Assembly: GCA_964624165.1 (NCBI GenBank)
Contig: CAZUWG010000002.1
Coordinates: forward strand, 10,410 to 74,409
DNA: 64,000 nt
Reading direction: 5' to 3'
Source: an uncultured Candidatus Saccharibacteria bacterium
GTDB lineage: Bacteria > Patescibacteriota > Minisyncoccia > Phycocordibacterales > UBA918
A program made the translations under genes and the position numbers. Shown piece after piece: positions 1-26,007 of the stretch (positions within the stretch are counted from its first letter, which is position 1; every line of letters starts with the position of its first letter). The notes under the pieces are model-generated. The model did no database searches, had not been told where the DNA came from, and worked only from the letters and a program-made list of their open reading frames with translations.

Positions 1-365
1 GGTGTGCGAATCGGGCTCGGGCCGCGATAATGTGGAAGTAGTGAAGGATGCAGGTTGATTGTCTGGTGCGCCGGAAGAGCAATAAACTCAGCAGGTAAAA
101 TCTTGTTAAATGCCACAACGACAAAAAGTTCTGCGCCAGTGATCGCTTCCAGAAAAGTTGGTTCGGTGAGGGACGTTGGTTGTAATACTGGAATACCTTC
201 AGCAGCAGCGAATAGTTTTGTTGGTGGTGGCGTGAGCACACGTCCGCGCCCACTTTTTCTATCTTCGCTCGTAACGACCGCTCGCGGGCGGAGATTGTGT
301 TGTAATAACGTTTCCAATACCGGAACCCCGAGCGGTTCGCCGCCAAAATAAATAAAATCAATCAT
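1..365 (-). CDS. fmt: methionyl-tRNA formyltransferase, N-terminal part (3' end cut by window edge)
   Basis: Minus-strand translation from ATG at 365 reads MIDFIYFGGEPLGVPVLETLL...INLHPSLLPHYRGPSPI, matching the formyltransferase catalytic motif (HPSLLPxxRG); it lies immediately downstream of def in the conserved def-fmt operon. Absent from the ORF track because it is truncated. Confidence 0.8.
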   Translation of the reverse strand, partial: MIDFIYFGGEPLGVPVLETLLQHNLRPRAVVTSEDRKSGRGRVLTPPPTKLFAAAEGIPVLQPTSLTEPTFLEAITGAELFVVVAFNKILPAEFIALPAHQTINLHPSLLPHYRGPSPIRT

Positions 366-368
366 GTG

Positions 369-872
369 TTAGTTAGCTTCATCTTTATGCCAGACTTTTT
401 CTGCTCGGTCGGTAAACAAAATGCCGTCAAGATGGTCGACTTCATGTTGTAGGATTTGAGCTAGGAGCTGTTCTGCTTCTATGACGTACTCTTGGCCGTG
501 CTCATCGAGGGCTCGCATGGTAGCTTTTTTGTGGCGACGAACTAGACCGTAGTATTCAGGGATAGAGAGACAGCCTTCACCGACCAGGCTAGTTTTTTTT
601 GAAACTTTTACTATGGTTGGATTGATTGCCACAAATGACTCAAGTGAATCGCGATCAGTGCTCTGATCTTCTACCAAAAAGATGCGCTTACTGATGCCTA
701 TTTGTGGTGCAGCGATAGCGACTGCTACAAAGCCATCTACTGAGTAGGTTTTTAGTGCGGCTTTCATATCCTTTATGATTTTTGTTACCGTCCCAGTTTT
801 GAACTCTTCGTCCGTCACTGCGTCTGCAATGCGATGGAGGGCTGGGTGGTTTTCGGGTACTAATTTGGCCAT
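369..872 (-). CDS. def: peptide deformylase
   Basis: 167 aa carrying the three PDF motifs GIGISAPQ-like (IAAPQIG), EGCLS and HEVDHLDG. Confidence 0.9.
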   Translation of the reverse strand: MAKLVPENHPALHRIADAVTDEEFKTGTVTKIIKDMKAALKTYSVDGFVAVAIAAPQIGISKRIFLVEDQSTDRDSLESFVAINPTIVKVSKKTSLVGEGCLSIPEYYGLVRRHKKATMRALDEHGQEYVIEAEQLLAQILQHEVDHLDGILFTDRAEKVWHKDEAN

Positions 873-912: not shown

Positions 913-2799
913 CTATACCAAACGTTCTGGATTGATCTCGACCCGCACATATGGCGGTAGAGTGCGTAGGAGAGCAAGGAGCTGCGTGTCTGGCCAGGCG
1001 GAGCGTTCGACGCGTAATAAACCACAACGGACGGTGCGGTCTTTTGTGCTTTGAGGGTTTGAATAAAAACGCATTTCATAGGAAGAAAGTATGCCTTTTA
1101 GCATGATTTCAATCTCCTGAACTTTTTCTTTTTTACCAACAAACATAACATGTACAAATATTACAAACGGTGGGTAGTGAAGCTTTTCTCGTAAGGCAAT
1201 TTCTTCGCTGTAAAATTTTTCTACCTGTCCACTTTTCGTAAATTGGACTAAGCTTTCATCAGCTTCATGTTTGGTTTGTAAGTAGAGCATGTCAGTGGTC
1301 TTGTCGCGCAACGTCAGAAGTAACGCCAGCGCGTCCTCTTCAGAGCGCCAGCTTGGGTGGGCACGTATCGCCTCAAGAGACGTAACTATGGTACTGTCGA
1401 CTGGTTCTGTTAAAGAGGGAAGTGTCATGGCGGTGCCAAGGAGTAGCGCTTGTTTGGCTTCTCTAAATTCCGCCATGAGCTGTAAGCGTTTACGTGGTGT
1501 GGTGGCGGTGGTGTGATCAAAGACTATGAGTGGAGTATCAGGAAAAGCATTCGCGAGCTGCTCTTTTATACGCTGTACCCCCACACCAAGCTCTTGTAGT
1601 TTCCATGAGCCACATTCAGTACAAACATCAAGGGCACGAATACGAGTACCTGTGACCGATACAAACCATCTTTGTTCCTCACCATTTTTCTCTGTTCTAA
1701 AAAGGCTATAAGGCGCTCCGGAATGAGGGCAACAAAAAATATGCCCGCAATCGCTGCATACGATAAGCGGCGCCAAACCACGCCTGGCGGCATAGATAAA
1801 GACGTGCTGCTTTTCCTTAAGAGCGTCCTTGATGGTGGAGATAGTTTTGTCGTAGAGAGGGAGAAAAGGCTTACGAGCTTTTTTGGGTGCGATGATGAGC
1901 TTCACGGAGCTGCTAAAAGCCAGTCGCTGCGCCGGCTCGTCTGTAGGCTCAATAAAGCCTTCTCTGCGGAGCCATTCGTCTTCTGTGTGAGGTAAGATGT
2001 CTGCGATGGTGAGCGAAATACGTTCGACCAAGGCGCGCGCCTGGGCGGCATCTTTGAAGTTGAGGTATGGTCGTTGTTTTTGCAAGTAATGTGAAGAGCG
2101 ACTATGTTCGACAATAATCTGTAGCACATCCGCTCGTGCAACCGTCAGATGAGAAGGAGTGACCACGATTAATTTTGTGTGTGAGTAATCATCAAGCGAA
2201 GCGTACGCTGCAGCAAGCTGGCGCTTGGTTGAGCGGTGTGTTAAAAGCAGGGTCCGTTTCTCGATGCCATGTTTTAAGGCTTCAAAAAGAAATTCCGCAT
2301 CAGCGTGCGTTGGCGCCATAACCAATACCGATCCTCGGCGAGCGAAAGTTTCTCGAATCGTTAGCTTGTGAGATTGTAGTCTCGTTGTAAAGGTGTCTTG
2401 TAATAAAGTCGCTCGGTAGGCGCTGTCTTCGTGAGGAATAGTGGTGCTGGATTGAGTATGCACGCCGGACAATATCTCAGCCGGGAGGAGGGCGGTATAG
2501 AGTGCACCCAATGGGTAAGGGTTACGTTTAGTAAGGGTTCTAGCTAGCTCGATGGTAGTGGGAGAAATACTTTGGGTGGCTTCTTGTGGTGGAAGTCGGC
2601 GCAGTCCAAACGAGGCTGCTTTGAGAGTCAGTTTTGAGAGAGGGACTTCATTTTGATCTACCACTAAAGCGCGCACGCTTTTCTTGCGAAGTGGAAGCGT
2701 GACTACTGATCCAAGTGCGAGACGCTGACTTGTGTAGTAGGAGAGAGGTTCGACGGGGGCGTTTTTTACTAAGGGAATTACTTCAGTGACAAACATCAT
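913..2799 (-). CDS. priA: primosomal protein N' (PriA)-like, ATPase motifs degenerate
   Basis: The region VLVMAPT...LLLTHRS...IVVTPS...IIVEHSRSSHY aligns block-for-block with E. coli PriA helicase motifs Ia-II. The C-terminus keeps the PriA Cys cluster (CSDCGHIFCCPHSG...CTECGS) and the HYPPF motif. Walker A (GSGKT) reads TFTTR and Walker B (DEEH) reads VEHS. Confidence 0.65.
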   Translation of the reverse strand: MMFVTEVIPLVKNAPVEPLSYYTSQRLALGSVVTLPLRKKSVRALVVDQNEVPLSKLTLKAASFGLRRLPPQEATQSISPTTIELARTLTKRNPYPLGALYTALLPAEILSGVHTQSSTTIPHEDSAYRATLLQDTFTTRLQSHKLTIRETFARRGSVLVMAPTHADAEFLFEALKHGIEKRTLLLTHRSTKRQLAAAYASLDDYSHTKLIVVTPSHLTVARADVLQIIVEHSRSSHYLQKQRPYLNFKDAAQARALVERISLTIADILPHTEDEWLRREGFIEPTDEPAQRLAFSSSVKLIIAPKKARKPFLPLYDKTISTIKDALKEKQHVFIYAARRGLAPLIVCSDCGHIFCCPHSGAPYSLFRTEKNGEEQRWFVSVTGTRIRALDVCTECGSWKLQELGVGVQRIKEQLANAFPDTPLIVFDHTTATTPRKRLQLMAEFREAKQALLLGTAMTLPSLTEPVDSTIVTSLEAIRAHPSWRSEEDALALLLTLRDKTTDMLYLQTKHEADESLVQFTKSGQVEKFYSEEIALREKLHYPPFVIFVHVMFVGKKEKVQEIEIMLKGILSSYEMRFYSNPQSTKDRTVRCGLLRVERSAWPDTQLLALLRTLPPYVRVEINPERLV

Positions 2800-2838: not shown

Positions 2839-2864
2839 TAGATATAGCATATATGCTATATCTA
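2839..2864. promoter_or_regulatory. perfect 26-bp palindrome (putative operator) in divergent intergenic region
   Basis: TAGATATAGCATATATGCTATATCTA equals its own reverse complement. It sits between the priA-like start (2799, minus strand) and the transporter gene on the plus strand. Confidence 0.5.
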
Positions 2865-3144
2865 AGGTAGAGTCCAATACATAGTGCGGCCTGATAATTT
2901 CATCACCAGATACAGTCGATATCTGGAACCGCAATACACCTATGTATGTTTAAAGCAATTGGACAAGTTATTTTATTATTTGCGCTACTACATGTGTTCC
3001 AAAACGCCTTCATCGCTTTTGAAAACGCAGTTGTCGCAACCTTTGAAGCGGTGGAGCGAAACGTCAATCGCACACCATAGCCGCCGAAAGCTGTATCATC
3101 TGGTACGGCTTTCTTGTGTTGTAAAGCATGCTACACTATCAGTA

Positions 3145-4176
3145 ATGACACAGCAAAAAATCTTAGAGTATGGCTTCTTCTTTGGATTGTTAGCCGGGGT
3201 AGTGTATTTAGTAGGATCTATGTTGCTGCCGTTTGTGACATCACTTTCGCTGGCGCTGATTATTGCGACTATCTTTTTCCCGGTACATCGTCGGGTTGTA
3301 GCGCGAATGCCAAAAGAAAATGAGACCATCGGAGCGCTTATGTCCACATTGATTATTCTTTTGGTAGCAATTTTGCCATTGATATTACTTAGTGTCGCAC
3401 TGTTTAATGAAGCACTTAGTGTGTACCAAGATTTACAGCGTGATTCATCATCGATCGCACAGCGGATTGCGGATGGTGAAGCACTTTTGCAGCAATACGT
3501 ACCGACTCTTGAGCTCAATCTTGATACTTATCTACGACAAGGATTTGGTTGGGTGACAGCGCATGTCGGCAGTCTCTTTGCAGGTACCGCTTCAGCATTT
3601 TTTACTCTTTTTATTACGCTCGTGAGCGTCTTCTATTTCTTGCGAGATGGAGAAAAATTGCGGCGTTATTTGATCAAAGTAATGCCCTTGAAAGAAAAAG
3701 ACGAACTTTTCATTTTTGCTCGTTTAGCACAGGCTATCCGTTCTGTGACTAATGGCATCGTATTGGTCGCGCTTATTCAAGGAGGGCTTACTGGCTTTGG
3801 ACTCTGGCTCTTTGGGTTTGATAACACCTTTATTTGGGGAGTTGTAGCCGCTTTTGGCGCCTTAATTCCAAGCGTTGGTACTGCGCTAGTCTTTGTGCCG
3901 GCGGTGGCGTATCTTTTCTTCACTGGTGACACTGCACTAGCTTTTGGACTCGCTGCTTGGGGGACGATAGCGGTAGGGGCAATCGATAATGTGCTTGGTC
4001 CTTACCTGATGGGGCGCGGTAACGCGATTCATCCGTTTCTGATCCTACTTTCTGTCTTGGGAGGAATTAGCGTCTTTGGGTTTATTGGTTTCTTGGTTGG
4101 GCCGATTGTAGTCAGTCTCATGTTTGTATTGCTTGAGCTTTACTCTCAACATCTTGACGTGTCGGAAGGGGAGTAA
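3145..4176 (+). CDS. AI-2E family transporter (PerM/YdiK-like, UPF0118)
   Basis: Multi-TM protein with the conserved AI-2E C-terminal block (NGIVLVALIQGGLTGFGLWLFG...LIPSVGTALVFVPAVAYL...GPIVVSLMFVLLE). Start chosen at ATG 3145 (MTQQKILEYGFFFGLL) just before TM1. The track ORF starts at GTG 2884, but that 87-codon extension has no membrane or domain character. Confidence 0.7.
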   Translation: MTQQKILEYGFFFGLLAGVVYLVGSMLLPFVTSLSLALIIATIFFPVHRRVVARMPKENETIGALMSTLIILLVAILPLILLSVALFNEALSVYQDLQRDSSSIAQRIADGEALLQQYVPTLELNLDTYLRQGFGWVTAHVGSLFAGTASAFFTLFITLVSVFYFLRDGEKLRRYLIKVMPLKEKDELFIFARLAQAIRSVTNGIVLVALIQGGLTGFGLWLFGFDNTFIWGVVAAFGALIPSVGTALVFVPAVAYLFFTGDTALAFGLAAWGTIAVGAIDNVLGPYLMGRGNAIHPFLILLSVLGGISVFGFIGFLVGPIVVSLMFVLLELYSQHLDVSEGE

Positions 4177-9477: not shown

Positions 9478-11175
9478 ATGACTCAACCCGAAGCACTCTC
9501 TATTTTACAAACGGGCGGCAATGCTTTCCTCACTGGTGAACCTGGCGCCGGCAAAACATATGTCATCAACCAATACATTTCTTGGCTTGAGGCAGCCGGA
9601 CTTAAAGTAGCTGTTACCGCCTCAACCGGGATCGCTGCGACGCATATAGGTGGTATGACTATTCACTCATGGAGCCGATTAGGACCTAGAGACTCACTCT
9701 CACCACAAGATCTGGATTACATTTTGCAACATGAAAAAACCGTTAAACGTATTCAAAATACGCACGTACTTATTATTGATGAAATTTCAATGCTGTCCGC
9801 TGAGTTACTAAATATGGTAGATCGCGTCTGCCGAGGAGCGCGCCATTCAACGGAATCATTTGGTGGTTTGCAGGTAGTGTTTGTCGGGGATTTTTTTCAA
9901 TTACCACCCATTGTACCGCGCGGTGAGGAGCTTCATTACGCTTTTCAATCTCAGTCTTGGCGTGAAGCCGCGCCGCTGATTTGTTATCTTACCGATCAAT
10001 ACCGCCAAGAAGACGAACAGCTTCTTTCGCTTCTCCAGTCAATCAGAAAGAACGATGTTGATGATGATGCTTTTACATTACTGAGCGAACAAACTGATAT
10101 CTCATATGTAGACATTGAGCCGACCAGACTCTACACACACAACCTTGATGTAGATAGTGTGAATGGAGCTGAGCTAGAAAAACTCTCAGGCACTTCGCGT
10201 ACGTTCAAAATGGCCGGTAGTGGAAATAAAACTATGCAGCAGTCTTTGGTAAAAAATTGCCTCTCACCTGAGATACTTTACTTAAAGGAAGATGCTATGG
10301 TGATGTGTACTAAAAATAATTTTGAGGCGGGGTACGTCAATGGTACGCTCGGACGGGTGGTTGGTTTTTCTGGTATTGGTTGGCCTGAGATCGAGACGGC
10401 TGAAGGCAAACGCATTACTATTGAGCCGGCCACATGGGAGGTCATCGAAGACAAAAAGTCTCTCGCGGCGGTGGAGCAGGTTCCGCTTCGTCTGGCGTGG
10501 GCGATCACGATTCATAAGAGTCAGGGGATGTCGCTTGATGCAGCAGAGATAGATCTCTCAAAGGCGTTTGTGTTTGGGCAGGGGTATGTGGCGCTCTCAA
10601 GGGTGCGTTCTCTCGCTGGTCTTAAGATGATCGGAATGAGCCCAACTGCGCTTAGAGTAGATCCGAAAGTAGTGCAACGCGACGAAGAGTTTAGAATAAA
10701 AAGTGAAGAAGCCATAAGTACGTTCAGAGAACTTTCAGATGAAGAATTGGAAAAAATGCATAGATCCTTCATTCTTACTTGCGGCGGAACTTTTCCGACT
10801 GAGATACCAAAAGGTAGAGCCACCAGTTATGAAAGAATTAAAAAAGAGAGCACTTACGCGCAGACCAAATCTCTCCTTGCTGAAAAACATACCATCTCTG
10901 AGATTGCTAAGTTGCGCGGTATGAACACCACCACGATCTGGGCACATCTTGAAAAGCTTGCAAGCGACGGCGAGCTTAGTGTATCAATGCTGACACACTT
11001 AACTTCAGCGGTGTCGGATAATTACAAAGAGCAAGAAGAGCGCGTTTTTAAGGCGATTGAGGCATGTGGCGAGGAAAAACTAAAACCACTTTTTGAATAT
11101 TGTAATGAAGAAATTGATTACGAGGTGATCCGTTTGGTGAGACTTCTGCACACACTTGAGTCTGGGGATAAGTAG
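9478..11175 (+). CDS. Pif1/RecD-family ATP-dependent DNA helicase with C-terminal HTH extension
   Basis: Walker A GEPGAGKTYV, Walker B LIIDEISML, and the Pif1-family motif GYVALSRVRSLAGLKM. An extra ~150-aa C-terminal region contains a helix-turn-helix-like segment (HTISEIAKLRGMNTTTIWAHLEKL). Confidence 0.75.
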   Translation: MTQPEALSILQTGGNAFLTGEPGAGKTYVINQYISWLEAAGLKVAVTASTGIAATHIGGMTIHSWSRLGPRDSLSPQDLDYILQHEKTVKRIQNTHVLIIDEISMLSAELLNMVDRVCRGARHSTESFGGLQVVFVGDFFQLPPIVPRGEELHYAFQSQSWREAAPLICYLTDQYRQEDEQLLSLLQSIRKNDVDDDAFTLLSEQTDISYVDIEPTRLYTHNLDVDSVNGAELEKLSGTSRTFKMAGSGNKTMQQSLVKNCLSPEILYLKEDAMVMCTKNNFEAGYVNGTLGRVVGFSGIGWPEIETAEGKRITIEPATWEVIEDKKSLAAVEQVPLRLAWAITIHKSQGMSLDAAEIDLSKAFVFGQGYVALSRVRSLAGLKMIGMSPTALRVDPKVVQRDEEFRIKSEEAISTFRELSDEELEKMHRSFILTCGGTFPTEIPKGRATSYERIKKESTYAQTKSLLAEKHTISEIAKLRGMNTTTIWAHLEKLASDGELSVSMLTHLTSAVSDNYKEQEERVFKAIEACGEEKLKPLFEYCNEEIDYEVIRLVRLLHTLESGDK

Positions 11176-13124: not shown

Positions 13125-16100
13125 TTAGCGCAAGACCTCGCCTGGTTTTCTGTAGTACACGATTGGTATTAATACGAGTGTAATCACAACTGAAAAGATC
13201 AGCCCAAACATCACAGCAAATGCCAGAGGTGCCCAGACGGGATCAGCGTATGTAAGCGGAATCATGCCCAGTACCGTGGTAATAGTGGTGAGAAGAATCG
13301 GACGTAAACGATTGGTGGCGCCATCAAGCACAATATCAATATGCGCTGCTTCGGGCCGCTCTTTTCGCATTTGGTTCATGGTGTCGATAAGGAGGATTGA
13401 GTTATTTACTACAATTCCTGAAAGCGCAATAAATCCCATCAGCGAAGGGAACGAGAGAGCATTTCCTGTCAACGCAAGCCCAACCATAATACCGATAAGT
13501 GAATACGGCAAGATAGAAAGTACGTATCGAGTGTGGAGGTAAGAGTTGAATTGCAGTACTAAAACACAGACCATAAGAAGTACGCCCGCCACTAGCGCGG
13601 CAAACATTTCCATAAAAGCTTTATTGGTTTCATCAGCTTCACCACCAGTACTGACGGTAATGTTGTCAGAAAGATTTAGTTCATTTTCAATCTTATCAAG
13701 TAGGGTTGCTGTTATCTCAAGGGCGTTGCCGTCCTCGGTCACTTCGCCTTGTAGAGCAATGACGCGTTTGCCACCTTCGTGAGTGATGACTTCATTTGAA
13801 GACTGAAGATAGATGGTCGTGATCGAGGACAGCGGTACCACGCCATTTGGGGTGGCTATTTCCGTCCTAAGTACATTGTCAATCGTCGTCTCGTTGGTAC
13901 GTGATGGATCAGTATTGCCAGGAATGTTTCGCTTCACTACGACAGTGACGTCGTCACTTAGTGAAGTCAGTGAGGTAGCTTCAGTGCCAAAAGTAGCGGC
14001 GCGAAGGGCGCTTGAGACGGCGATCGCGTTTAGGCCCAGGCTTGACGCTTTAAGATTTTCGAGGGTAACTAAATATTCGACCGCACTATTATTGGTATCG
14101 CTGGTGACGTTTTTTGTACCAGGGATTTGGCGCAAGAGCTCGCCAGCCTTAGTAGCAGCATTCGTGAGTTCGGAAATATCATTACCGATAAACTTTACCA
14201 AGATCGGCGCGCCTGTCGGTGGTCCACTGTCTGGCTGACTGATATCAATTTGTGCATTAGGAATAGTAGAAACCTTTGTCTGGAGTTGGTCTGCAAGGAC
14301 GAGGCTGGTTGCGTCTCGGTCTTCTTTAAGTAGGATAAAAAAGTTGGCAAGTTTTTCTCCATCACCACCACCGGTGTATTCGTTGCCGCTACCTACCGTC
14401 GTGCGGAAAGAGGAGATATTTGATTCTGTGTAAAGAATATCCTCTACTTGGCGTGCAACAATGTCAGTGCGTTCTTTAGTAGTGCCAGCTGCCATTTCGA
14501 CATCTATAAAAAGGTAGGGCATATCACTACTTTCAAAAAACACTACTTTCACCACCCCAAATACAGGAAGCAGAAGCGCTGCCACTAGCAGTAAGCGAAT
14601 GCTCCACAAAAAGCGTTTTTCTTTTTTTCTGTTACCAAGAATGGTGCTTAGTTTGTTGCGATACCATATCTCGAGCGCGTGCGCGTAGGCCACCTGTTTA
14701 GCTTCAAAGTTGGTAGTATTGCGACGGCGAAGAAAGTTGGAGGCAAAAAGCGGTACAATAAAAAGCGATACAAAAAGTGATGCACTCAAGAGGAAAATAA
14801 GAGTAAAGGGAATACTCTCAATAAACTGACCTGTAATACCAGACACAATAAAGAGTCCGACAAACATCGCAATCGTGGTGAGTGTCCCTGAAGTTAATGG
14901 AGCAGCAAAATCCGCAACAGTTTTACGGGCGGCTTCTTTTTTATCAATAGTAAGGTCTTTCTTCATGCGTCGGTTGATGCCTTCCACCATCACAATGGCC
15001 GAGTCGACCAAAATACCAATACCAAGAATCAGTGAAAAAAGTGAGAGGAAATTGATGGTGTTGCCAGAGTAGTAGAGTCCAATAAACCCGATCAAAAATG
15101 AGAGCGGGATCGCCGTTCCAGCGATCAGTCCTTCTCGCCAGCCGATAGCAAGTACTAGTGCAATAAAAACCAATATCACAGTTTGTAACCCAGAAGTTGC
15201 CAGTTGCACTAGGTCATCATTGATATCCTTACCCATGTCAATAAGCACCTCTACGGTACTCTCCTCAAGCAGCTCACCCTCAGCTTGTAGCTCTGTAATG
15301 CGCGCGCGTACGGCTGAAGCTATGCGCGTAATATCGCCACTACTTTGTTTATAGATACTTACGGACATCGATTGTACAGAAGGTGATCCATCAACAGAAA
15401 GACGAGATAGGGTTGTTTGTTTGCTGAGTCCATCAATTACGACGGCGACGTCTCGCACGAGCACTGATTGTCCGCCGCGCGTCGTGATTGCGATGTTTTC
15501 AATATCAGCTGCGTTTTTTGGTTTGCCTTCGAAGGCGATGTTGTAGCTTGTGCTATCGTGCTCGATGCTGCCGATAGGTAGTGCGATGTTGGCGTTTTGG
15601 ATTGCGTTGGTAACATCTTGAATCGAGATAGAAAATTGTGTTAAGGCAGCATTATCTACAAGGACAGTGATTTCAGGTTTCTGCACCCCCACAATAACGA
15701 CATCCGAAACTCCAGACACTTTTTCAAGCTCATCCTCAAGCAAAGAAGCGAGGTCAGAAAAGGCGCGGTCGTTGGTATCATTGGCAATGGCGACGGTGAG
15801 TATGGGTTGATTCACAAAGTCAATCTGCGTCACCTGCGGCTCAGTGGCATCGCTAGGAAGATCGCTTTTCGCCCGGTCTACCGCATCTTTTAAGTCTTGG
15901 ATTGAATCATCGATATCGGCGCTGGCTTCGAATTCTACTGTGATAGAGGAGACGCCGTTACGTGACGTTGAGGTAACTTTTTTTACATTTTCAATATTTT
16001 GAACAGCAGTCTCAAGTTCGTTTGTGACCAGTGCTTCAATGTCGGTTGCGGGGGCGCCAGGAAGAGCGGTGATGACAACTCCCACTGGTATCTCTACTTC

Positions 16101-16208
16101 TGGTGTAGACTCACGAGGAATGGAGAGTAGGGCATACGAACCAACCACGATCAACACCACTACCAAAAGGTACGCAAAACGATTGTTCTTGAGAAAAAAG
16201 TTCCACAT
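13125..16208 (-). CDS. RND-family efflux transporter permease (AcrB/HAE-like)
   Basis: 1027 aa with the 12-TM RND topology and typical motifs (IDNSIVMVEGI, GLALTGN..., large periplasmic loops). Confidence 0.9.
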   Translation of the reverse strand: MWNFFLKNNRFAYLLVVVLIVVGSYALLSIPRESTPEVEIPVGVVITALPGAPATDIEALVTNELETAVQNIENVKKVTSTSRNGVSSITVEFEASADIDDSIQDLKDAVDRAKSDLPSDATEPQVTQIDFVNQPILTVAIANDTNDRAFSDLASLLEDELEKVSGVSDVVIVGVQKPEITVLVDNAALTQFSISIQDVTNAIQNANIALPIGSIEHDSTSYNIAFEGKPKNAADIENIAITTRGGQSVLVRDVAVVIDGLSKQTTLSRLSVDGSPSVQSMSVSIYKQSSGDITRIASAVRARITELQAEGELLEESTVEVLIDMGKDINDDLVQLATSGLQTVILVFIALVLAIGWREGLIAGTAIPLSFLIGFIGLYYSGNTINFLSLFSLILGIGILVDSAIVMVEGINRRMKKDLTIDKKEAARKTVADFAAPLTSGTLTTIAMFVGLFIVSGITGQFIESIPFTLIFLLSASLFVSLFIVPLFASNFLRRRNTTNFEAKQVAYAHALEIWYRNKLSTILGNRKKEKRFLWSIRLLLVAALLLPVFGVVKVVFFESSDMPYLFIDVEMAAGTTKERTDIVARQVEDILYTESNISSFRTTVGSGNEYTGGGDGEKLANFFILLKEDRDATSLVLADQLQTKVSTIPNAQIDISQPDSGPPTGAPILVKFIGNDISELTNAATKAGELLRQIPGTKNVTSDTNNSAVEYLVTLENLKASSLGLNAIAVSSALRAATFGTEATSLTSLSDDVTVVVKRNIPGNTDPSRTNETTIDNVLRTEIATPNGVVPLSSITTIYLQSSNEVITHEGGKRVIALQGEVTEDGNALEITATLLDKIENELNLSDNITVSTGGEADETNKAFMEMFAALVAGVLLMVCVLVLQFNSYLHTRYVLSILPYSLIGIMVGLALTGNALSFPSLMGFIALSGIVVNNSILLIDTMNQMRKERPEAAHIDIVLDGATNRLRPILLTTITTVLGMIPLTYADPVWAPLAFAVMFGLIFSVVITLVLIPIVYYRKPGEVLR

Positions 16209-16211
16209 AAG

Positions 16212-17771
16212 TTAGTTGGTGATAGTTACCTCCTGTCCTTCATATAATCCTCGTGCGTCAAAAATAAAACGAGTCGATACATCGATACCACTTTCAATTT
16301 CTACTTGAGTGCCTTGGATAGTTTTGTAGGTGATAGGGAGTGCGCGGACACGATTGTCTTCTACAGTAAAGATAAAGCTATCGTTACCCACAAACTTGAT
16401 AGCATTAATAGGTACTAAGAGTCGAGCCACTTGTTCTTTAACGATGGTATCGTCAGTAAGACTGATGGCGACACTGCTGCCGTTGGTGAGGGTGGTATCG
16501 TCAGTAGCGATTTTTATTTCTGTCTTTAAAGTATTTGGGTCAATCGCGGGAGAGATGTTGACTACAGTGCCGTCGATACGGCCTTCAATTTTTACTGTTT
16601 GGCCAATCTCAAATGAAGCGAGGTCATTCTCACCAGCAAAAATTGATACTTCTAAAGAACCATTATTTGCAATTTCTGCGATTGGAGCAAAGGCGCTCAC
16701 AAAATCACCAGTGTTTACATGAAGAATGTTGACTGTACCGCTGATGGGGGTACGCATAATGGTTTTAAACAGACGTGATTGTGCGGCGCGTAAACTGCCG
16801 AGAGCTTGTTTTACTTGTGCGTCAGCGGCATTAAGGTCTGGATTGGTGGCGCCGATTTGTGCTTTGCGCAACACATCTTCAGCAGTCGTGATAGATCTGC
16901 CGGTTGCTTCGAGTGATTGGACGGTGTTTTGTAGAGAAGCTCTTGTGGCAATCAGGCCAGGAGCAAAACTGCTTACTGCGACTCCATCAAGGGTTTCGTT
17001 TTTCACGGCACTGCTGGTGTTGGAGATAAAGATATCCAGGAGCTCAATCACTGCTCGGGTATGAGTAATTGCGCGCGAAAGTTCTGTTTCGACAGACTCA
17101 GAGCTAACAGTTTCTATGCTGTTTTCCCAACTCGTAAGATTCGCTTCAAGGGCGATTCGTTTGTCGTTGATACGTGGGGCATTGCCAACGTCAATACGCA
17201 CACCTGGAATCTGTGATCTTGGATTACTAAAAAACCTATCAATATCAAAAATGACGGCAGTGTAGGCAGTGTTATATGCTTGCTTATATACAGTAACCGC
17301 GTTTTGCTTGGCGGCCATGAGGTCGTTTTGTGCGTCTTCAACACTTACGCGACTAGATGCTTGAGCAGCTAAAGCGGCTTCATATGCACCTTGCGCCTGA
17401 AGGACAGCGGCTCTTTCCGCAGAATTTTCAATGCTAGCAATAAGACTGCCAGCTGCAACGGTGTCGCCAGCTTTAACACTCACGCTAGTGATACGGCCAG
17501 CTCCTTCAGACTTGATCGCTGCTTCGCTAACCGCGCGTACTGTGCCTACAAACTCACGACTATCTGTAGCACTTAAATCAGACACCGTACCAACCCTGAC
17601 CACAGGGACAGGAGTGGTAAGAGGCTCCTTTGAGGTGTCGGGGGAAAGAAACTGAGTACCTACAAAAAGAGCCGCGAGTATAAGTAATACTCGGATCGCG
17701 TTGTTGCGCTTTGTGAGGGGCCAGACGTAAAAAGAGAGGTCTTCCCCAACAGCTTTTATAATATTCAGCAT
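16212..17771 (-). CDS. RND efflux periplasmic adaptor (membrane-fusion protein, HlyD family)
   Basis: N-terminal anchor, a long alpha-helical hairpin region and beta-barrel/lipoyl-like segments (ISGTVNILHVNTGDFV...). Directly upstream of and co-oriented with the RND permease, 3-nt gap. Confidence 0.8.
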   Translation of the reverse strand: MLNIIKAVGEDLSFYVWPLTKRNNAIRVLLILAALFVGTQFLSPDTSKEPLTTPVPVVRVGTVSDLSATDSREFVGTVRAVSEAAIKSEGAGRITSVSVKAGDTVAAGSLIASIENSAERAAVLQAQGAYEAALAAQASSRVSVEDAQNDLMAAKQNAVTVYKQAYNTAYTAVIFDIDRFFSNPRSQIPGVRIDVGNAPRINDKRIALEANLTSWENSIETVSSESVETELSRAITHTRAVIELLDIFISNTSSAVKNETLDGVAVSSFAPGLIATRASLQNTVQSLEATGRSITTAEDVLRKAQIGATNPDLNAADAQVKQALGSLRAAQSRLFKTIMRTPISGTVNILHVNTGDFVSAFAPIAEIANNGSLEVSIFAGENDLASFEIGQTVKIEGRIDGTVVNISPAIDPNTLKTEIKIATDDTTLTNGSSVAISLTDDTIVKEQVARLLVPINAIKFVGNDSFIFTVEDNRVRALPITYKTIQGTQVEIESGIDVSTRFIFDARGLYEGQEVTITN

Positions 17772-21901: not shown

Positions 21902-21940
21902 AAAAACAGGCGGCGAGGCTTTGCCTCGCCGCCTGTTTTC
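21902..21940. terminator. intrinsic terminator
   Basis: AAAAACAGGCGGCGAGGC-TTT-GCCTCGCCGCCTGTTTTC. Confidence 0.7.
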
Positions 21941-21974
21941 CATTCTCACTAAACTGTGGCACAATGATTTCACT

Positions 21975-24830
21975 ATGCACAAAAAATTTGATCACAAAGC
22001 GCTTGAGCAAAAATGGCAAAATGACTGGTCGGAATCAAAGGTGTACCGCACTGATTCTGCTTCAAAAAAGCCGAAAGTCTTTGTACTTGATATGTTCCCT
22101 TATCCCTCTGGAGAAGGGCTGCATGTCGGTCATCCGAAAGGGTTTATCGCGACTGATATTTATTCGCGAATGAAGCGAATGAATGGATTTGAAGTGCTTC
22201 ACCCAATGGGGTGGGACGCGTTTGGCTTGCCGGCTGAAAACTATGCCCTCAAGAATAAAGTGCATCCAAGAGTGGCGGTTGATAAAAATATCGCCAACTT
22301 CAAATCTCAGCTTTCAAAACTCGGTCTCGATTATGATTGGTCACGAGAAATTAATACGACGGATCCCCATTTTTATAAGTGGACACAATGGATTTTTATT
22401 CAGTTGTTTAAAAAAGGTTTAGCCTATGAGAGTCATGAGCCGATCAACTGGTGTCCAGGGTGTCAGACCGGCCTCGCCAATGAAGACCTCGAGAGCGATG
22501 GCACCTGCGAACGGTGCGGCAGTGTGGTTGAAAAACGACCAATGCGGCAGTGGGTTTTGAAGATTCGTGAGTATGCGGATCGGATGCTTGAAGATCTTGA
22601 TACGCTTGAGTGGCCAGAACATATTAAAGAAGCCCAACGCAACTGGATTGGACGCTCAGAAGGCGCTGAAATCGATTTTGCACTCTCGTCAGGAGATATT
22701 GTCACTGTCTTTACCACTAGACCAGACACGCTGTTTGGCGCTACCTATATGGTATTAGCGCCAGAGCACGAGCTAGTACAAAAAAATAAAGACACCGTCA
22801 GCAATTGGGAAGAAGTGTCCGCCTACATTACAAAAGCTGCCAACAAAAAAGAGATGGATCGTCTTGATGACACCAGGGAAAAAACCGGCGTAAAGCTTGA
22901 AGGCATTACTGCCACCAATCCAGCCAGCGGAGAAGAAATACCCGTCTATATAGCTGACTACGTACTAGCTAGCTACGGAACTGGGGCAATCATGGCCGTC
23001 CCCGCGCATGATGAACGCGACTATGCATTTGCAAATAAGTTTGGAATTGAAATACGTCCAGTAATACGAAAAGTATTTGGAGAACCACTTTCCAATCCAG
23101 TACCGCGTACAGCTGTAGGTGCAATCGTACACGACACTAAGACAGATAAGTATTTAATACAGTACTCGCACGAGTTTGAAAAGCATTCCTTTATTTTTGG
23201 TGGTTTAGAAGCAGGTGAAACCTATGCTGAAGCAGCTGTGCGGGAAACTTTAGAAGAGACTGGTTATCATACCCAATTTGTGCGTTATATCACCGAAGAA
23301 ACTGAATCGCATTTCTACCACCCGGGCAAAAAAATTAACAGAGCGCTTGTGAGTCGTCGAGTATTGCTTGAGTTAACTAATGATGTACCAGAGTCAGTGT
23401 CTCAAGAAGAGCTCGCAAAGCAAAAGCCAGTCTGGTTAACGGTCGATGAACTACGCACAAAATTAGTCGACATTTTAGAAGAGAAATACGCCATCGAGCA
23501 ATTGTTTAACCCTCATCCATACACCAGCGACGGCACTCTGTGCCATTCTGGTGAGTTCGATGGCCTGGATTCCGAACAAGCCAAGCAGGCTATTGTTGAA
23601 AAAGTTGGCGGACGGATTACTAAGACGTACAAAATTAAAGATTGGGTCTTTTCACGTCAGCGCTATTGGGGTGAACCTTTCCCGATAGTACACGCAGAAG
23701 ATGGGAAGGCGTATCCGGTCGCGTTTGAGCAGCTCCCCGTGGAGTTACCAGAAGTGGAGCACTATGAGCCAGCGGGAGATGGGCAGTCGCCTTTAGCGAC
23801 CATCCCGGACTGGGTAAATGTCACTGGCTACCTCAATGAAGCAGGTGATTTTGTGGTAGCAAATGAAGCACCTGCTGGCAAAACTCTCATGAAGGGTAAG
23901 CGAGAGACCAACACCATGCCACAATGGGCAGGCAGTAGCTGGTATTACCTGCGTTATATCGATCCTCAAAACGAAGACGTGTTGGTTGACTCAGTAAAAG
24001 AAAAAGACTGGCAACCGGTTGATGTGTATGTTGGTGGTGATCACGCAGTGCGTCACCTTATTTACGCGCGTTTTTGGCACAAGTTTCTCTACGATATTAA
24101 TGTCGTCTCGACACTTGAGCCGTTCCAGCGACTTGAATTCCTTGGATTTATTTTGGCCGAAGATGGTCGAAAAATGAGCAAACGGTGGGGGAATGTAATC
24201 AACCCTGACGATATTGTGGCTTTGGTAGGAGCCGATACGCTTCGTATCTACGAGATGTTTATGGGACCATTTGAAAATACGATTGCTTGGAGCCAAAATG
24301 GTGTAGTAGGAGCGCGGCGCTTTTTGGAGCGCGTCAATGGACTTTCAGAGCACATAAAAGATGAAGAAACGAAAAGCATCACGGCGTTACTTCATAAAAC
24401 TATCAAGAAAATACGAGATGATATTGAAGGCTTTAAATTTAATACCGCCGTGAGCGCTATGATGGTGTACCTAAACGAGGCGGAAAAAGCTGGCATCACA
24501 AAAGAAAATTATCTATCATTCCTCAAACTTTTGGCCCCGTTTGCGCCCCACCTTACCGAAGAGCTCTGGCGTCAGGCTGGTGAGAAAAATAGTATTCACA
24601 CAGCCTCTTTCCCGGTGTACGAAGAAACACTTGCTAAAGATGAAACTGTTACTATTGGGGTACAGGTCAATGGAAAAGTGCGAGGCGATATTGTAATTGC
24701 GCCTGATGCGACAGAAGAAGAAGCACTTAAAGAAGCCCGAGCGCACGAGAATGTGGAAAAGTGGCTTAAAGGAGCTGCGTTGAAAAAGGTTATTTACCGA
24801 CCAGGAAAGATTTTAAATGTGATTGTATAA
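21975..24830 (+). CDS. leuS: leucyl-tRNA synthetase carrying an inserted Nudix hydrolase domain
   Basis: HIGH (HVGHPKG), the CP1 editing domain (TTRPDTLFGATYMVLAPEH...GTGAIMAVPAHDERDYAFA) and KMSKS (KMSKRWGN). Between the end of the editing domain and the conserved SGEFDGL...DWVFSRQRYWGEPFP block lies a ~135-aa insertion with a textbook Nudix box GGLEAGETYAEAAVRETLEETGY (Gx5Ex7REUxEExGU). Start set to ATG 21975 (MHKKFDHKALEQKWQNDW), because the track start at 21921 lies inside the upstream terminator hairpin. Confidence 0.9.
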   Translation: MHKKFDHKALEQKWQNDWSESKVYRTDSASKKPKVFVLDMFPYPSGEGLHVGHPKGFIATDIYSRMKRMNGFEVLHPMGWDAFGLPAENYALKNKVHPRVAVDKNIANFKSQLSKLGLDYDWSREINTTDPHFYKWTQWIFIQLFKKGLAYESHEPINWCPGCQTGLANEDLESDGTCERCGSVVEKRPMRQWVLKIREYADRMLEDLDTLEWPEHIKEAQRNWIGRSEGAEIDFALSSGDIVTVFTTRPDTLFGATYMVLAPEHELVQKNKDTVSNWEEVSAYITKAANKKEMDRLDDTREKTGVKLEGITATNPASGEEIPVYIADYVLASYGTGAIMAVPAHDERDYAFANKFGIEIRPVIRKVFGEPLSNPVPRTAVGAIVHDTKTDKYLIQYSHEFEKHSFIFGGLEAGETYAEAAVRETLEETGYHTQFVRYITEETESHFYHPGKKINRALVSRRVLLELTNDVPESVSQEELAKQKPVWLTVDELRTKLVDILEEKYAIEQLFNPHPYTSDGTLCHSGEFDGLDSEQAKQAIVEKVGGRITKTYKIKDWVFSRQRYWGEPFPIVHAEDGKAYPVAFEQLPVELPEVEHYEPAGDGQSPLATIPDWVNVTGYLNEAGDFVVANEAPAGKTLMKGKRETNTMPQWAGSSWYYLRYIDPQNEDVLVDSVKEKDWQPVDVYVGGDHAVRHLIYARFWHKFLYDINVVSTLEPFQRLEFLGFILAEDGRKMSKRWGNVINPDDIVALVGADTLRIYEMFMGPFENTIAWSQNGVVGARRFLERVNGLSEHIKDEETKSITALLHKTIKKIRDDIEGFKFNTAVSAMMVYLNEAEKAGITKENYLSFLKLLAPFAPHLTEELWRQAGEKNSIHTASFPVYEETLAKDETVTIGVQVNGKVRGDIVIAPDATEEEALKEARAHENVEKWLKGAALKKVIYRPGKILNVIV

Positions 24831-24981: not shown

Positions 24982-26007
24982 ATGATCACTTTTAAACCTA
25001 AGCAAGTCACAAAAAAGTTGCTCTCAGTCCTGCCGGAGCGAGCAAGAGATGTGCTCGAAAAACGGTACGGCCTTGGCGCAGATAATGCCAAGCATACCCT
25101 CGAAAGCATCGGTCAGACGTACGGCATTACGCGAGAGCGAGTGCGTCAGATTGAAAATTACGCAATTGCCGCCATTCAAAAGTCGGAAGTCTTTTCAGAG
25201 TTCCAGGCAATTTTTGATGAACTAAATGAATCACTCGAAGAGCTCGGTGGCGGTCTTTTGGCTGAACACACACTCCTTGAAGAGATTACGAAAGATGCTA
25301 TTTTGCAGAATCATCTGTTTTTCTTGCTTGTACTTGGAAATCCATTTTCACGTAAAAAAGAAAATCCGTCATATGCCCATCGTTGGTACACCAACAAAGA
25401 TATGGCTGACGTAGTGGAGAAGGCTTTGCGAGCTGTCTACAAAACACTCGACAAAGATGAGCTCGTCACCGAAGAAGAAATTCTCTCACGCTTTAAAAGC
25501 GAGTTGGCCGAAGTGGCTGACACGCGAGATGAATCTGTCTTACGGCGCTGGCTTTTGATCTCAAAAGAGATCGACAAAAATCCGCTCGGTGAATGGGGAC
25601 CTTCCGCCTCTCCAAACGTTCGTGTAAAAGGCGTGCGCGACTACGCCTATCTAGTGGTCAAGCGCCATGGTTCTCCGATGCACTTTAGAGAAGTCGCTTC
25701 ATCTATTGAAGAGCTGTTTGCAAAAAAGGCCCATACAGCAACGACACACAACGAGCTCATTAAGGACGAGCGATTTGTACTGGTCGGACGAGGCCTCTAC
25801 GCTTTGACTGAGTGGGGATACTCTGCCGGAGTGGTAAAGGACGTGTTGCGCGAATTACTCGAAAAACACGGCCCACTGACAAAAGACGAACTCATCGATA
25901 AGGTGCGCAAAGAGCGTTATGTGAAGGACAATACTATCGTTGTAAACCTTCAAGACGCAAATCTCTTTAAAAAACTACCAAACGGAGCGTACACTTTATC
26001 GGTCTAA
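24982..26007 (+). CDS. sigma-70 region-4-like HTH protein with uncharacterised C-terminal domain
   Basis: N-terminal 65 aa (RARDVLEKRYGLGADNAKHTLESIGQTYGITRERVRQIENYAIAAIQ) match sigma-70 region 4 (the -35-binding HTH). No region 2 or 3; about 270 aa of unknown domain follow. Confidence 0.6.
   Translation: MITFKPKQVTKKLLSVLPERARDVLEKRYGLGADNAKHTLESIGQTYGITRERVRQIENYAIAAIQKSEVFSEFQAIFDELNESLEELGGGLLAEHTLLEEITKDAILQNHLFFLLVLGNPFSRKKENPSYAHRWYTNKDMADVVEKALRAVYKTLDKDELVTEEEILSRFKSELAEVADTRDESVLRRWLLISKEIDKNPLGEWGPSASPNVRVKGVRDYAYLVVKRHGSPMHFREVASSIEELFAKKAHTATTHNELIKDERFVLVGRGLYALTEWGYSAGVVKDVLRELLEKHGPLTKDELIDKVRKERYVKDNTIVVNLQDANLFKKLPNGAYTLSV

What the first reader, a model, noticed from the sequence alone, without database searches (positions are those of the whole stretch)
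2100..2410. PriA homologue with both Walker motifs degenerated (helicase-dead primosomal protein)
The 628-aa minus-strand protein aligns to PriA through helicase motifs Ia-II and retains the PriA Zn-binding Cys cluster and the C-terminal HYPPF. Where PriA has Walker A GVTGSGKTEVY it has LQDTFTTRLQS: no GKT, the Lys is lost. Where PriA has Walker B IDEEHD it has IVEHSR, with the acidic pair lost. From established knowledge, E. coli priA K230R (helicase-dead) still supports primosome assembly, so a scaffold-only PriA is biologically plausible. A naturally ATPase-dead PriA would still be notable.
Basis: partly seen in the sequence, partly recalled or inferred. Interest (0 to 1): 0.5.

Follow-up and report, generated by a model that had tools for sequence, protein, structure and literature searches.

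The report
Motor-dead PriA replication-restart protein
This gene is the bacterium's own copy of PriA, the protein that restarts broken DNA replication forks, but the sequence motifs it needs to use ATP and unwind DNA are gone; hundreds of related uncultured Patescibacteria share this state, which had been shown experimentally only in Deinococcus.

Summary
The ORF at window 913-2799 (-), 628 aa, is a true PriA by sequence, by predicted fold (TM 0.82 to E. coli PriA, 8FAK) and by its position in a priA-def-fmt operon. It lacks helicase motifs I, III and VI and the catalytic Glu of motif II. Walker A GSGKT is FTTRL, and DEEH is EHSR.

The Walker Lys is replaced by an Arg that is invariant across the family, the same change as E. 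coli priA300. Only one of the two PriA zinc sites survives.

The loss is clade-wide. All 120 close homologues, all 80 species representatives and all 145 distant representatives share it. About 700 clusters at 50% identity belong to the family, with labels such as Kaiserbacteria and Paceibacteria.

Other Patescibacteria (Moranbacteria) keep an intact PriA at the same locus. NJ trees indicate at least two independent losses within the phylum.

Most likely it is an ATP-independent fork-recognition and helicase-recruitment scaffold. This is not unprecedented: D. radiodurans PriA is a proven pseudohelicase (Lopper 2015). I found no paper reporting the Patescibacteria case. It is a new, larger and more degenerate member of a known kind.

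The parts
913..2799 (-). priA pseudohelicase gene (628 aa plus stop)
   Evidence: ORF. TIGR00595 E=3e-40, below the cutoff. PDB PriA hits. AF2 pLDDT 91.6. Foldseek 8fak_H TM 0.82.
2470..2799 (-). 3' DNA-binding domain (aa 1-110)
   Evidence: Weak Pfam PF17764 hit at aa 20-106. 100 of 105 E. coli 3'BD residues align. Pocket Tyr (Ec Y18) is kept in 143/146 and the Ec D17 position is S/T.
2413..2469 (-). Short variable linker replacing the winged-helix domain (aa 111-129)
   Evidence: Only 6 of 73 E. coli WH residues have aligned partners. Lowest information content of any region, 0.67 bits.
1876..2412 (-). RecA-like lobe 1 (aa 130-308), catalytically degenerate but conserved
   Evidence: Aligned to Ec residues 200-400. 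Information content 1.98 bits, similar to the 3'BD and CRR.
2365..2403 (-). Walker A (motif I) remnant LQDTFTTRLQSHK. The Arg140 codon at 2380-2382 sits at the position of E. coli Lys230.
   Evidence: R is found in 146/146 and 80/80. The AF2 model has a 2-residue loop before the helix, against a 6-residue P-loop in the intact relative.
2089..2118 (-). Walker B (motif II) remnant IIVEHSRSSH. EHSR (2098-2109) lies opposite DEEH.
   Evidence: The first position stays acidic in the whole family. The catalytic Glu is R/H/K in most members and Glu in 13/146.
1981..2010 (-). Motif III remnant TIADILPHTE (canonical GSATP)
1768..1785 (-). Motif IV RRGLAP, retained
   Evidence: This is the most conserved 15-aa window of the family.
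1594..1764 (-). Cysteine-rich region (aa 346-402). The outer Zn site is intact (C348, C351, C393, C396). The inner Zn site is lost. A beta-hairpin is retained.
   Evidence: Hairpin strands 365-371 and 374-380 in the AF2 model.
1165..1593 (-). RecA-like lobe 2 and helical linker (aa 403-545). Includes the motif V remnant LLGTAMTLP (1417-1449), the motif VI remnant LLLTLRDKTTD (1291-1323, Arg fingers lost) and YPPF (1165-1176).
916..1164 (-). C-terminal domain (aa 546-628)
   Evidence: 71 of 92 E. coli CTD residues align. Covered by the full-length Foldseek match.
369..872 (-). def (peptide deformylase), next gene in the operon
   Evidence: Pfam PF01327 E=3e-43. def lies downstream of priA in all 80 related loci, and immediately downstream in 72.
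1..365 (-). 5' part of fmt (methionyl-tRNA formyltransferase); runs off the window
   Evidence: Translation contains HPSLLPHYRGPSPI. fmt follows def in 65 related loci. Formyl_trans_N sits in the equivalent position in L082 and L083.

Best explanation
This is the organism's orthologous priA gene, and it has evolved into a pseudohelicase. It keeps the PriA architecture: the 3'-end-binding domain, two RecA-like lobes, the cysteine-rich insertion with one Zn site and its beta-hairpin, and the C-terminal domain. It has lost the ATP-binding and hydrolysis apparatus: the P-loop, the catalytic Glu of DEEH, motif III and the motif VI arginine fingers.

The proposed mechanism is inferred by analogy with E. 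coli K230R/K230A PriA and D. radiodurans PriA. The protein recognises abandoned forks or D-loops without ATP. The 3'BD would bind the nascent leading-strand 3' end, and the lobes, CRR and CTD would clamp the lagging-strand template. It would then act as a docking platform that brings the replicative helicase DnaB, directly or through a loader, back onto the lagging-strand template. Any duplex that must be cleared first would be unwound by another helicase, or the pathway would be limited to forks whose lagging arm is already single-stranded.

Shown here: homology, fold, motif loss, clade-wide conservation, orthologous locus. Inferred: no ATPase activity, fork binding, DnaB recruitment.
For: Identity as PriA: (TM 0.82 over the whole chain; next-best non-PriA hits are Mfd at TM <=0.42).

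Motif loss. K230 is R in 146/146. T231 is hydrophobic. E321 is R/H/K in most members. GSATP becomes GD..L and GRAGR is absent.

P-loop: the AF2 model has a 2-residue turn (135-136) before a helix that already contains R140. The intact Moranbacteria PriA has a 6-residue loop ending in GKT at the helix N-terminus.

Functional constraint: 120 homologues at 39-61% identity, all about 630 aa, mean column identity 55%. 719 clusters at 50% identity score E<=1e-30. Every intact or type-b PriA I recovered scores <97 bits against the query, while family members score >=165 bits. Information content of lobe 1 (1.98 bits) equals that of the 3'BD (2.05) and CRR (2.07). High-confidence fold.

Orthology: priA-def-fmt order in the window and in 80/80 related loci. 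An intact Moranbacteria PriA and a second degenerate type both sit in priA-def-fmt-rhodanese.

DNA-binding elements kept: the 3'BD pocket Tyr, motif IV, the conserved hairpin and the outer Zn site.

Precedent: E. coli K230R/K230A PriA supports restart and DnaB loading in vitro and in vivo (PMC5778457; PMC10175261). D. radiodurans PriA has no ATPase or helicase activity, yet binds forks and DnaB (PMC4504706).
Against: No biochemistry exists for any family member. The Arg at the Lys position is 100% conserved, and the first Walker B position is always acidic, which is stronger conservation than a simply dead site requires. These residues could support residual nucleotide or phosphate binding, or a structural salt bridge. 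I could not inspect model coordinates to tell which.

Partners are unknown: no dnaB, dciA, dnaD, ssb or priB is present in the 64-kb window. The rest of the genome could not be searched, so a second, intact PriA is not excluded.
Confidence: 0.7

Rival explanations
1. The site is not dead but rewired. The invariant Arg140, the always-acidic residue 231 and other conserved residues would form a non-canonical nucleotide- or phosphate-binding switch, so the protein would still bind (and perhaps slowly hydrolyse) ATP, or use it as an allosteric ligand.
For: R140 is found in 146/146 and 80/80 sequences. Position 231 is E or D in 146/146, and position 233 is E in 129/146 of the wider family. Lobe 1 is as conserved as the DNA-binding domains.
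Against: All P-loop glycines and the Ser/Thr are gone, and the loop is predicted to be absorbed into the helix. The motif VI arginine fingers and motif III are absent. E. coli K230R alone abolishes ATPase activity (PMC5778457). In the query's own subfamily the third acidic residue is also lost (S/A in 70/80).
Confidence: 0.1
2. This gene is a specialised non-catalytic copy, and the real restart helicase is encoded elsewhere in the genome. That could be a second, intact PriA, or another helicase that took over the whole role.
For: The genome outside the 64-kb window could not be searched. An intact PIF1-like SF1B helicase (GAGKT, DE) lies 7 kb away. Intact PriAs do exist in other Patescibacteria.
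Against: The gene occupies the canonical priA-def-fmt slot, the same slot used by the intact PriA of Moranbacteria. That indicates orthologous replacement rather than a paralogue. No second PriA-like sequence was found in the window or within +/-10 kb in the 80 related loci. Family members were recovered from contigs up to 1.03 Mb, but the rest of those contigs could not be searched.
Confidence: 0.12
3. The gene is a decaying relic with no function, on its way to loss in a reduced genome.
For: Patescibacteria have reduced genomes. NCBIfam and Pfam models score it below their cutoffs, and some database records call it 'hypothetical protein'.
Against: The ORF is full length and uninterrupted in 80/80 species representatives, with near-constant length (78 of 80 at 630-639 aa). 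There are 43 invariant columns over 120 sequences. The fold is predicted with high confidence. The family persists across sequence divergence down to 26% identity.
Confidence: 0.03

Closest known systems
Deinococcus radiodurans PriA pseudohelicase, and Deinococcus-Thermus PriAs generally (Lopper, Boone & Morrow 2015, PMC4504706)
   Same: A naturally occurring PriA with poor matches to Walker A and B and with Arg in place of the Walker Lys. It is presumed to act as a restart scaffold. No priB or dnaT partners are evident.
   Different: It belongs to a different phylum. The loss here arose inside Patescibacteria, because intact PriAs occur at the same locus in sister lineages. The decay goes further: no P-loop glycines, motifs III and VI gone, no WH domain, and in this subfamily one Zn site lost. 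There is no biochemistry for this family. No Deinococcus sequence was available here for a direct alignment.
E. coli PriA K230R (priA300) and K230A engineered variants
   Same: The same residue change at the Walker Lys position. [quoted passage not shown]
   Different: They are single-site laboratory mutants of an otherwise intact helicase that works with PriB, DnaT and DnaC. Here the whole catalytic apparatus is gone in nature, and the partner proteins are unknown.
Canonical PriA (E. coli / K. pneumoniae; PDB 4NL4, 6DGD, 8FAK)
   Same: Domain order 3'BD, lobe 1, lobe 2 with CRR insertion, CTD. Motif IV RRGxAP, GT.M of motif V, the outer Zn site and the PP motif before the CTD are shared. TM 0.82.
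   Different: 17% identity in the structural alignment, against 28% for an intact Patescibacteria PriA. No WH domain. Motifs I, II, III and VI are degenerate. It scores below the TIGR00595 cutoff (138 vs 230 bits).
Intact Patescibacteria PriA ('type a'; e.g. P0360, Candidatus Moranbacteria, GCA_028711705.1)
   Same: The same short WH-less architecture (about 660-680 aa), the same priA-def-fmt locus and the same wider clade (89% NJ bootstrap).
   Different: It keeps SSGKT, DEE[HQ], SATP and GTQM.KGWD, and it gives Pfam DEAD and Helicase_C hits.
Actinobacterial 'primosome assembly protein PriA' (NCBIfam PRK14873 sub-models)
   Same: The query hits NF011453 at E=1e-21. My recollection, unverified here, is that actinobacterial PriAs also lack canonical Walker motifs.
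   Different: Not tested. No actinobacterial sequence was retrieved, and the one mycobacterial review consulted (PMC5694481) does not mention it. Treat this as a lead only.

Membership tests
PriA (primosomal protein N') | N-terminal 3' DNA-binding domain with a 3'-end pocket | tested here: met
   PF17764 hit is weak (13.4 bits, below cutoff). However, 100/105 E. coli 3'BD residues align, the pocket Tyr is conserved in 143/146, and the domain is covered by the full-length Foldseek match.
PriA (primosomal protein N') | Two RecA-like lobes with a cysteine-rich Zn-binding insertion in lobe 2, followed by a C-terminal domain, in PriA-specific arrangement | tested here: met
   AF2 pLDDT 91.6, pTM 0.90. 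The top nine PDB hits are all PriA, TM 0.62-0.82, and the next family (Mfd) is <=0.42.
PriA (primosomal protein N') | Eight Cys coordinating two Zn ions in the CRR | tested here: not met
   Only the outer site (Ec C436, C439, C476, C479) is kept, in 146/146 and 80/80. The inner-site positions are S/T in the query and in most of its subfamily, though kept in about 120-129/146 of the wider family.
PriA (primosomal protein N') | SF2 helicase motifs I (GxGKT), II (DEEH), III (SAT) and VI (QxxGRxGR) | tested here: not met
   FTTRL, EHSR, ADIL and LTLRDKT occupy those positions. Family members have no Pfam DEAD or Helicase_C hit, unlike canonical PriAs.
PriA (primosomal protein N') | Score above the curated equivalog cutoff (TIGR00595 / PRK05580 models) | tested here: not met
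   138.2 bits against a cutoff of 230.35. All other PriA models score far below their cutoffs.
PriA (primosomal protein N') | Orthologous genomic position (priA-def-fmt, as in B. subtilis by established knowledge) | tested here: met
   Window order priA-def-fmt. Seen in 80/80 related loci. An intact Patescibacteria PriA is at the same locus.
PriA (primosomal protein N') | DNA-dependent ATPase and 3'-5' helicase activity | not testable with these tools
   Requires purified protein. The sequence predicts absence.
PriA pseudohelicase (as defined for Deinococcus-Thermus) | PriA homologue whose Walker A Lys is replaced (K to R) and whose Walker A and B match the consensus poorly | tested here: met
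   R140 lies at the K230 position in every alignment. Walker B is EHSR. The criterion is taken from PMC4504706.
PriA pseudohelicase (as defined for Deinococcus-Thermus) | No ATP hydrolysis and no unwinding, but retained ssDNA and fork binding and a DnaB interaction | not testable with these tools
   These are biochemical properties. None can be measured here.
PriA pseudohelicase (as defined for Deinococcus-Thermus) | Common descent with the Deinococcus-Thermus pseudohelicase lineage | not tested
   No Deinococcus or Thermus PriA sequence could be fetched. Indirect evidence points to an independent origin: the family nests with intact Patescibacteria PriAs (A+B+C clade 89%).

The most novel reading that the evidence does not exclude
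A large part of the Patescibacteria (the Kaiserbacteria / Paceibacteria-type lineages; about 700 clusters at 50% identity) restarts replication with a PriA that is purely a structural adaptor. The PriA motor has been discarded repeatedly, at least twice, within this one phylum. The result is a natural graded series at one locus: intact; Walker A and motif VI lost; all motifs lost; one Zn site also lost. The universally retained Arg140 and acidic residue 231 would then mark a new structural latch that replaces bound nucleotide. The series would define the minimal PriA needed for DnaB reloading in organisms without PriB, DnaT or DnaC.
Probability: 0.35. Interest if true: 0.6.

Novelty: new member of a known kind. 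Interest (0 to 1): 0.42.

Why it matters
[quoted passage not shown] This finding shows a second and much larger exception, in an uncultured radiation that makes up a substantial share of bacterial diversity. In at least two lineages of that phylum the motor has decayed while the scaffold stays under strong constraint.

This supports the idea that fork recognition and helicase recruitment, not unwinding, is PriA's core function. The clade also offers ready-made natural variants (intact, partly decayed, fully decayed) for testing which PriA surfaces are sufficient for restart.

There is a practical point for annotation. These proteins fall below the curated PriA model cutoffs. They are labelled inconsistently as 'primosomal protein N' (superfamily II helicase)' or 'hypothetical protein', and should not be assigned helicase activity.

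Tried and rejected
1. An intact GxGKT elsewhere in the protein. A regex scan found only scattered, non-homologous GK[ST] triplets in some homologues. Rejected.

2. The AF2 model matches fork-bound E. coli PriA (8FAK, TM 0.82) better than apo PriA (0.69), which suggested a constitutively 'pore-closed' conformation. The control model of an intact Moranbacteria PriA shows the same preference (0.82 vs 0.71). The preference is therefore not specific to the pseudohelicase, and I dropped this as evidence.

3. Retrieving the source contig beyond the window with the look-up of encoding contigs on P0001. The protein is not on record.

4. A second PriA. Only the window and +/-10 kb around 80 related loci could be searched, and none was found.

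5. Taxon names for distant family members. The listing of cluster members returned almost no names.

6. The afdb50 fold library is not installed.

7. First NJ attempts: one timed out and one gave NaN distances from the Kimura correction. I redid them with the Poisson correction.

8. Literature on PriA in CPR, Parcubacteria or Patescibacteria: nothing relevant found. Literature on degenerate actinobacterial PriA: not confirmed.

9. Rfam scan of the window: no hits.

10. The promoter and terminator scan around priA found no more sites than the shuffled controls.
Full report
**The object.** The minus-strand ORF at window 913-2799 encodes 628 aa. The finding's span, 2100-2410, corresponds to about aa 131-233. 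That is the first RecA-like lobe, from the Walker A position to the Walker B position. Direct translation confirms the key strings: 2365-2403 = LQDTFTTRLQSHK, 2098-2109 = EHSR, 1165-1176 = YPPF.

**Is it PriA?** Yes.
- NCBIfam's PriA equivalog TIGR00595 matches aa 148-560 at E=3e-40, and a dozen other PriA models follow. All score far below their curated cutoffs (138 vs 230 bits for TIGR00595).
- Pfam finds only a sub-threshold 3'BD hit and no DEAD or Helicase_C domain.
- The best solved-structure relatives by sequence are K. pneumoniae and E. coli PriA at E~1e-17.
- A profile of the family aligns to E. coli PriA with 99.5% probability over query 138-553 and Ec 228-639.
- An AlphaFold2 model built on 120 homologues is confident (pLDDT 91.6, pTM 0.90). 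Its nine best PDB matches are all PriA (TM 0.62-0.82, best 8fak_H). The next family, Mfd, is at TM <=0.42.
- Domain by domain, the 3'BD, both lobes, the CRR and the CTD are present. The winged-helix domain is absent, with 6 of 73 E. coli residues aligned.

**Motif status.** I took E. coli priA from NC_000913 as reference and later added 17 canonical PriAs recovered in a profile search. Every alignment gives the same register:

| Motif | Canonical | Query |
|---|---|---|
| I | GSGKT | FTTRL |
| II | DEEH | EHSR |
| III | GSATP | ADILP |
| V | GTQMxAKG | GTAMTLP |
| VI | QxxGRAGR | LTLRDKT |
| IV | RRGxAP | retained |

- The Walker Lys is replaced by Arg140, which is invariant in 146/146 family sequences.
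- The Walker Thr is hydrophobic.
- The first Walker B position is always acidic (E in 125, D in 21).
- The catalytic Glu is R, H or K in most members.
- In the model the strand-loop-helix that should form the P-loop has a 2-residue turn, and Arg140 sits inside the helix. In the control model of an intact relative, a 6-residue loop ends in GKT at the helix N-terminus.

The outer Zn site (C348, C351, C393, C396) is invariant. The inner site (Ec C445, C448, C463, C466) is Ser or Thr in this subfamily, though most of the wider family keeps it.

**Is it one aberrant gene or a clade?** It is a clade.
- The word-indexed search returned 120 clusters at 39-61% identity, all about 630 aa. Source labels include Candidatus Kaiserbacteria, Candidatus Paceibacterota and Paceibacterota-type MAGs. 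All 120 share the loss.
- A scan of GTDB species representatives found 213 relatives. The 80 retrieved carry labels such as Kaiserbacteria, Paceibacteria, Nomurabacteria, Minisyncoccia and 'Patescibacteria group'. All 80 have Arg at the Lys position and an intact outer Zn site.
- The exhaustive HMMER search of 1.84 billion representatives gave 719 clusters at E<=1e-30. All 145 full-length members of the top 150, down to 26% identity, lack GKT. Their consensus is 'Q-AxxxER.xxYKS' at motif I and '[IV][IV][ED][RHK]E[SN]S..YK' at motif II.
- Every intact or differently degenerate PriA I hold scores <97 bits against the query, whereas family members score >=165 bits. The 719 clusters are therefore essentially all this family.
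- The family is under constraint. There are 43 invariant columns over 120 sequences. Information content in the 'dead' lobe 1 (1.98 bits) equals that of the 3'BD (2.05) and CRR (2.07).

**Orthology and evolution.**
- priA is followed by def (Pfam E=3e-43) and by the 5' end of fmt at the window edge.
- The same order holds in all 80 related loci, immediately adjacent in 72.
- A search seeded with the nearest intact relative (P0314) showed that other Patescibacteria have short, WH-less PriAs with intact SSGKT, DEE[HQ], SATP and GTQM.KGWD. I call these 'type a'. Their labels include Parcubacteria group and Candidatus Moranbacteria.
- A further group ('type b') has lost Walker A and motif VI but keeps '[TL]EEQDESYKQ'.
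- An intact type-a gene (Moranbacteria GCA_028711705.1) and a type-b gene both lie in priA-def-fmt-rhodanese. These are therefore orthologues at one locus, not paralogues.
- In NJ trees with Poisson distances and 100 bootstraps, the query family is monophyletic (100%). Patescibacteria types a, b and c form a clade (89%). The main type-b group clusters with the intact type-a sequences to the exclusion of the query family (93%). One further degenerate sequence (P0323) is sister to the query family (96%).
- This indicates at least two independent losses of the PriA ATPase inside Patescibacteria. By implication the origin is independent of the Deinococcus-Thermus case. These are distance trees on very divergent sequences, and no Deinococcus sequence could be included, so this remains an inference.

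**Mechanism.**
- Shown: the fold, the DNA-binding elements and the partner-docking domain survive, while the ATP site does not.
- Established elsewhere: E. coli PriA K230R and K230A lack ATPase and helicase activity, yet support primosome assembly, DnaB loading in vitro and near-normal growth through the PriA-PriB pathway (PMC5778457; PMC10175261).
- Established elsewhere: fork binding alone drives the CRR rotation that forms a pore around lagging-strand ssDNA and exposes the partner-docking surface.
- Established elsewhere: D. radiodurans PriA, with K to R and poor Walker motifs, has no ATPase or helicase activity but binds ssDNA, forks and DnaB (PMC4504706).
- Inferred: the Patescibacteria protein is an ATP-independent fork or D-loop sensor that recruits the replicative helicase. 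Duplex clearing would be left to other enzymes, or would be unnecessary on its substrates.
- The absolute conservation of Arg140 and of an acidic residue at 231 suggests a structural role, perhaps a salt bridge filling the former nucleotide pocket. I could not examine model coordinates, so this is a hypothesis.

**What could not be settled.** I could not determine whether the genome has a second PriA. None is present in the 64-kb window, and none lies within +/-10 kb of the 80 related genes, but whole genomes were out of reach. An intact PIF1-like helicase lies 7 kb away. No dnaB, ssb or loader gene is in the window.

**Comparison with the known, and novelty.** A natural PriA pseudohelicase is an established concept (Lopper et al. 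2015). The field's review names Deinococcus as the only exception to conservation of PriA helicase activity. Full-text searches for PriA together with Patescibacteria, CPR or Parcubacteria found nothing relevant. I therefore class the finding as a new member of a known kind. It is a second, far larger and more extensively decayed pseudohelicase lineage, with evidence of recurrent loss within one phylum. Interest is moderate (0.42). It revises a stated generalisation and offers a natural dissection series, but the principle is already known and every functional statement here is inferred.

Noticed in passing
window 21921-24830 (+): The leucyl-tRNA synthetase (969 aa) carries a NUDIX domain (aa 395-515, Pfam E=5e-14) inserted just after the editing domain. 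It has an intact Nudix box, GGLEAGETYAEAAVRETLEETGY. A full-text search for LeuRS + Nudix + insertion found no report of such a fusion.
   Followed up: partly
L083:6001-7983, L084:149-2131; proteins P0382, P0387-P0413, P0323, P0437: There is a second kind of degenerate PriA in Patescibacteria (labels include Moranbacteria). Walker A and motif VI are lost, but '[TL]EEQDESYKQ' is kept. It lies at the same priA-def-fmt-rhodanese locus as the intact Moranbacteria PriA (L082). It groups with intact sequences in NJ trees, which implies an independent loss.
   Followed up: partly
window 9478-11175 (+): A PIF1-like SF1B helicase (565 aa) has intact Walker A (GEPGAGKT) and Walker B and a C-terminal HTH_40 domain. 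It lies 7 kb from the motor-dead priA and is a candidate for the missing unwinding activity, but no link was shown.
   Followed up: partly
window 2839-2864: A perfect 26-bp palindrome (TAGATATAGCATA/TATGCTATATCTA) sits in the divergent intergenic region between priA and the AI-2E-family transporter gene. It could be an operator. Conservation in relatives was not checked.
   Followed up: no
window 1-64000: No Rfam family reaches its gathering score anywhere in the 64 kb, so there is no tRNA, rRNA or riboswitch. GC skew is positive from 1 to about 48 kb and turns slightly negative after that, and AT skew flips at the same place.
   Followed up: no
window 29565-30428 (+): A 287-aa protein combines an ATP-cone domain with an Mrr-type restriction-endonuclease fold and an AF1548-like C-terminal domain. 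This looks like an allosterically regulated nuclease.
   Followed up: no
window 13125-17771 (-): A full-length AcrB-type RND transporter (1027 aa, E=1e-174) is paired with a HlyD-type membrane-fusion protein. This is notable in a reduced Patescibacteria genome, which is generally thought to lack an outer membrane.
   Followed up: no
window 49220-50347 (+), 38409-39770 (+), 24982-26007 (+): Three further oddities: a SET-domain protein (E=7e-11); a weak Baseplate_J-like protein (E=2e-5); and a protein joining sigma-70 region 4 to a HARE-HTH domain.
   Followed up: no
window 2884-4176 (+): In the listed 430-aa ORF for the AI-2E transporter, the Pfam domain begins only at aa 105. The GTG start is probably too far upstream, and the true priA-transporter intergenic region is likely longer than 84 bp.
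   Followed up: no
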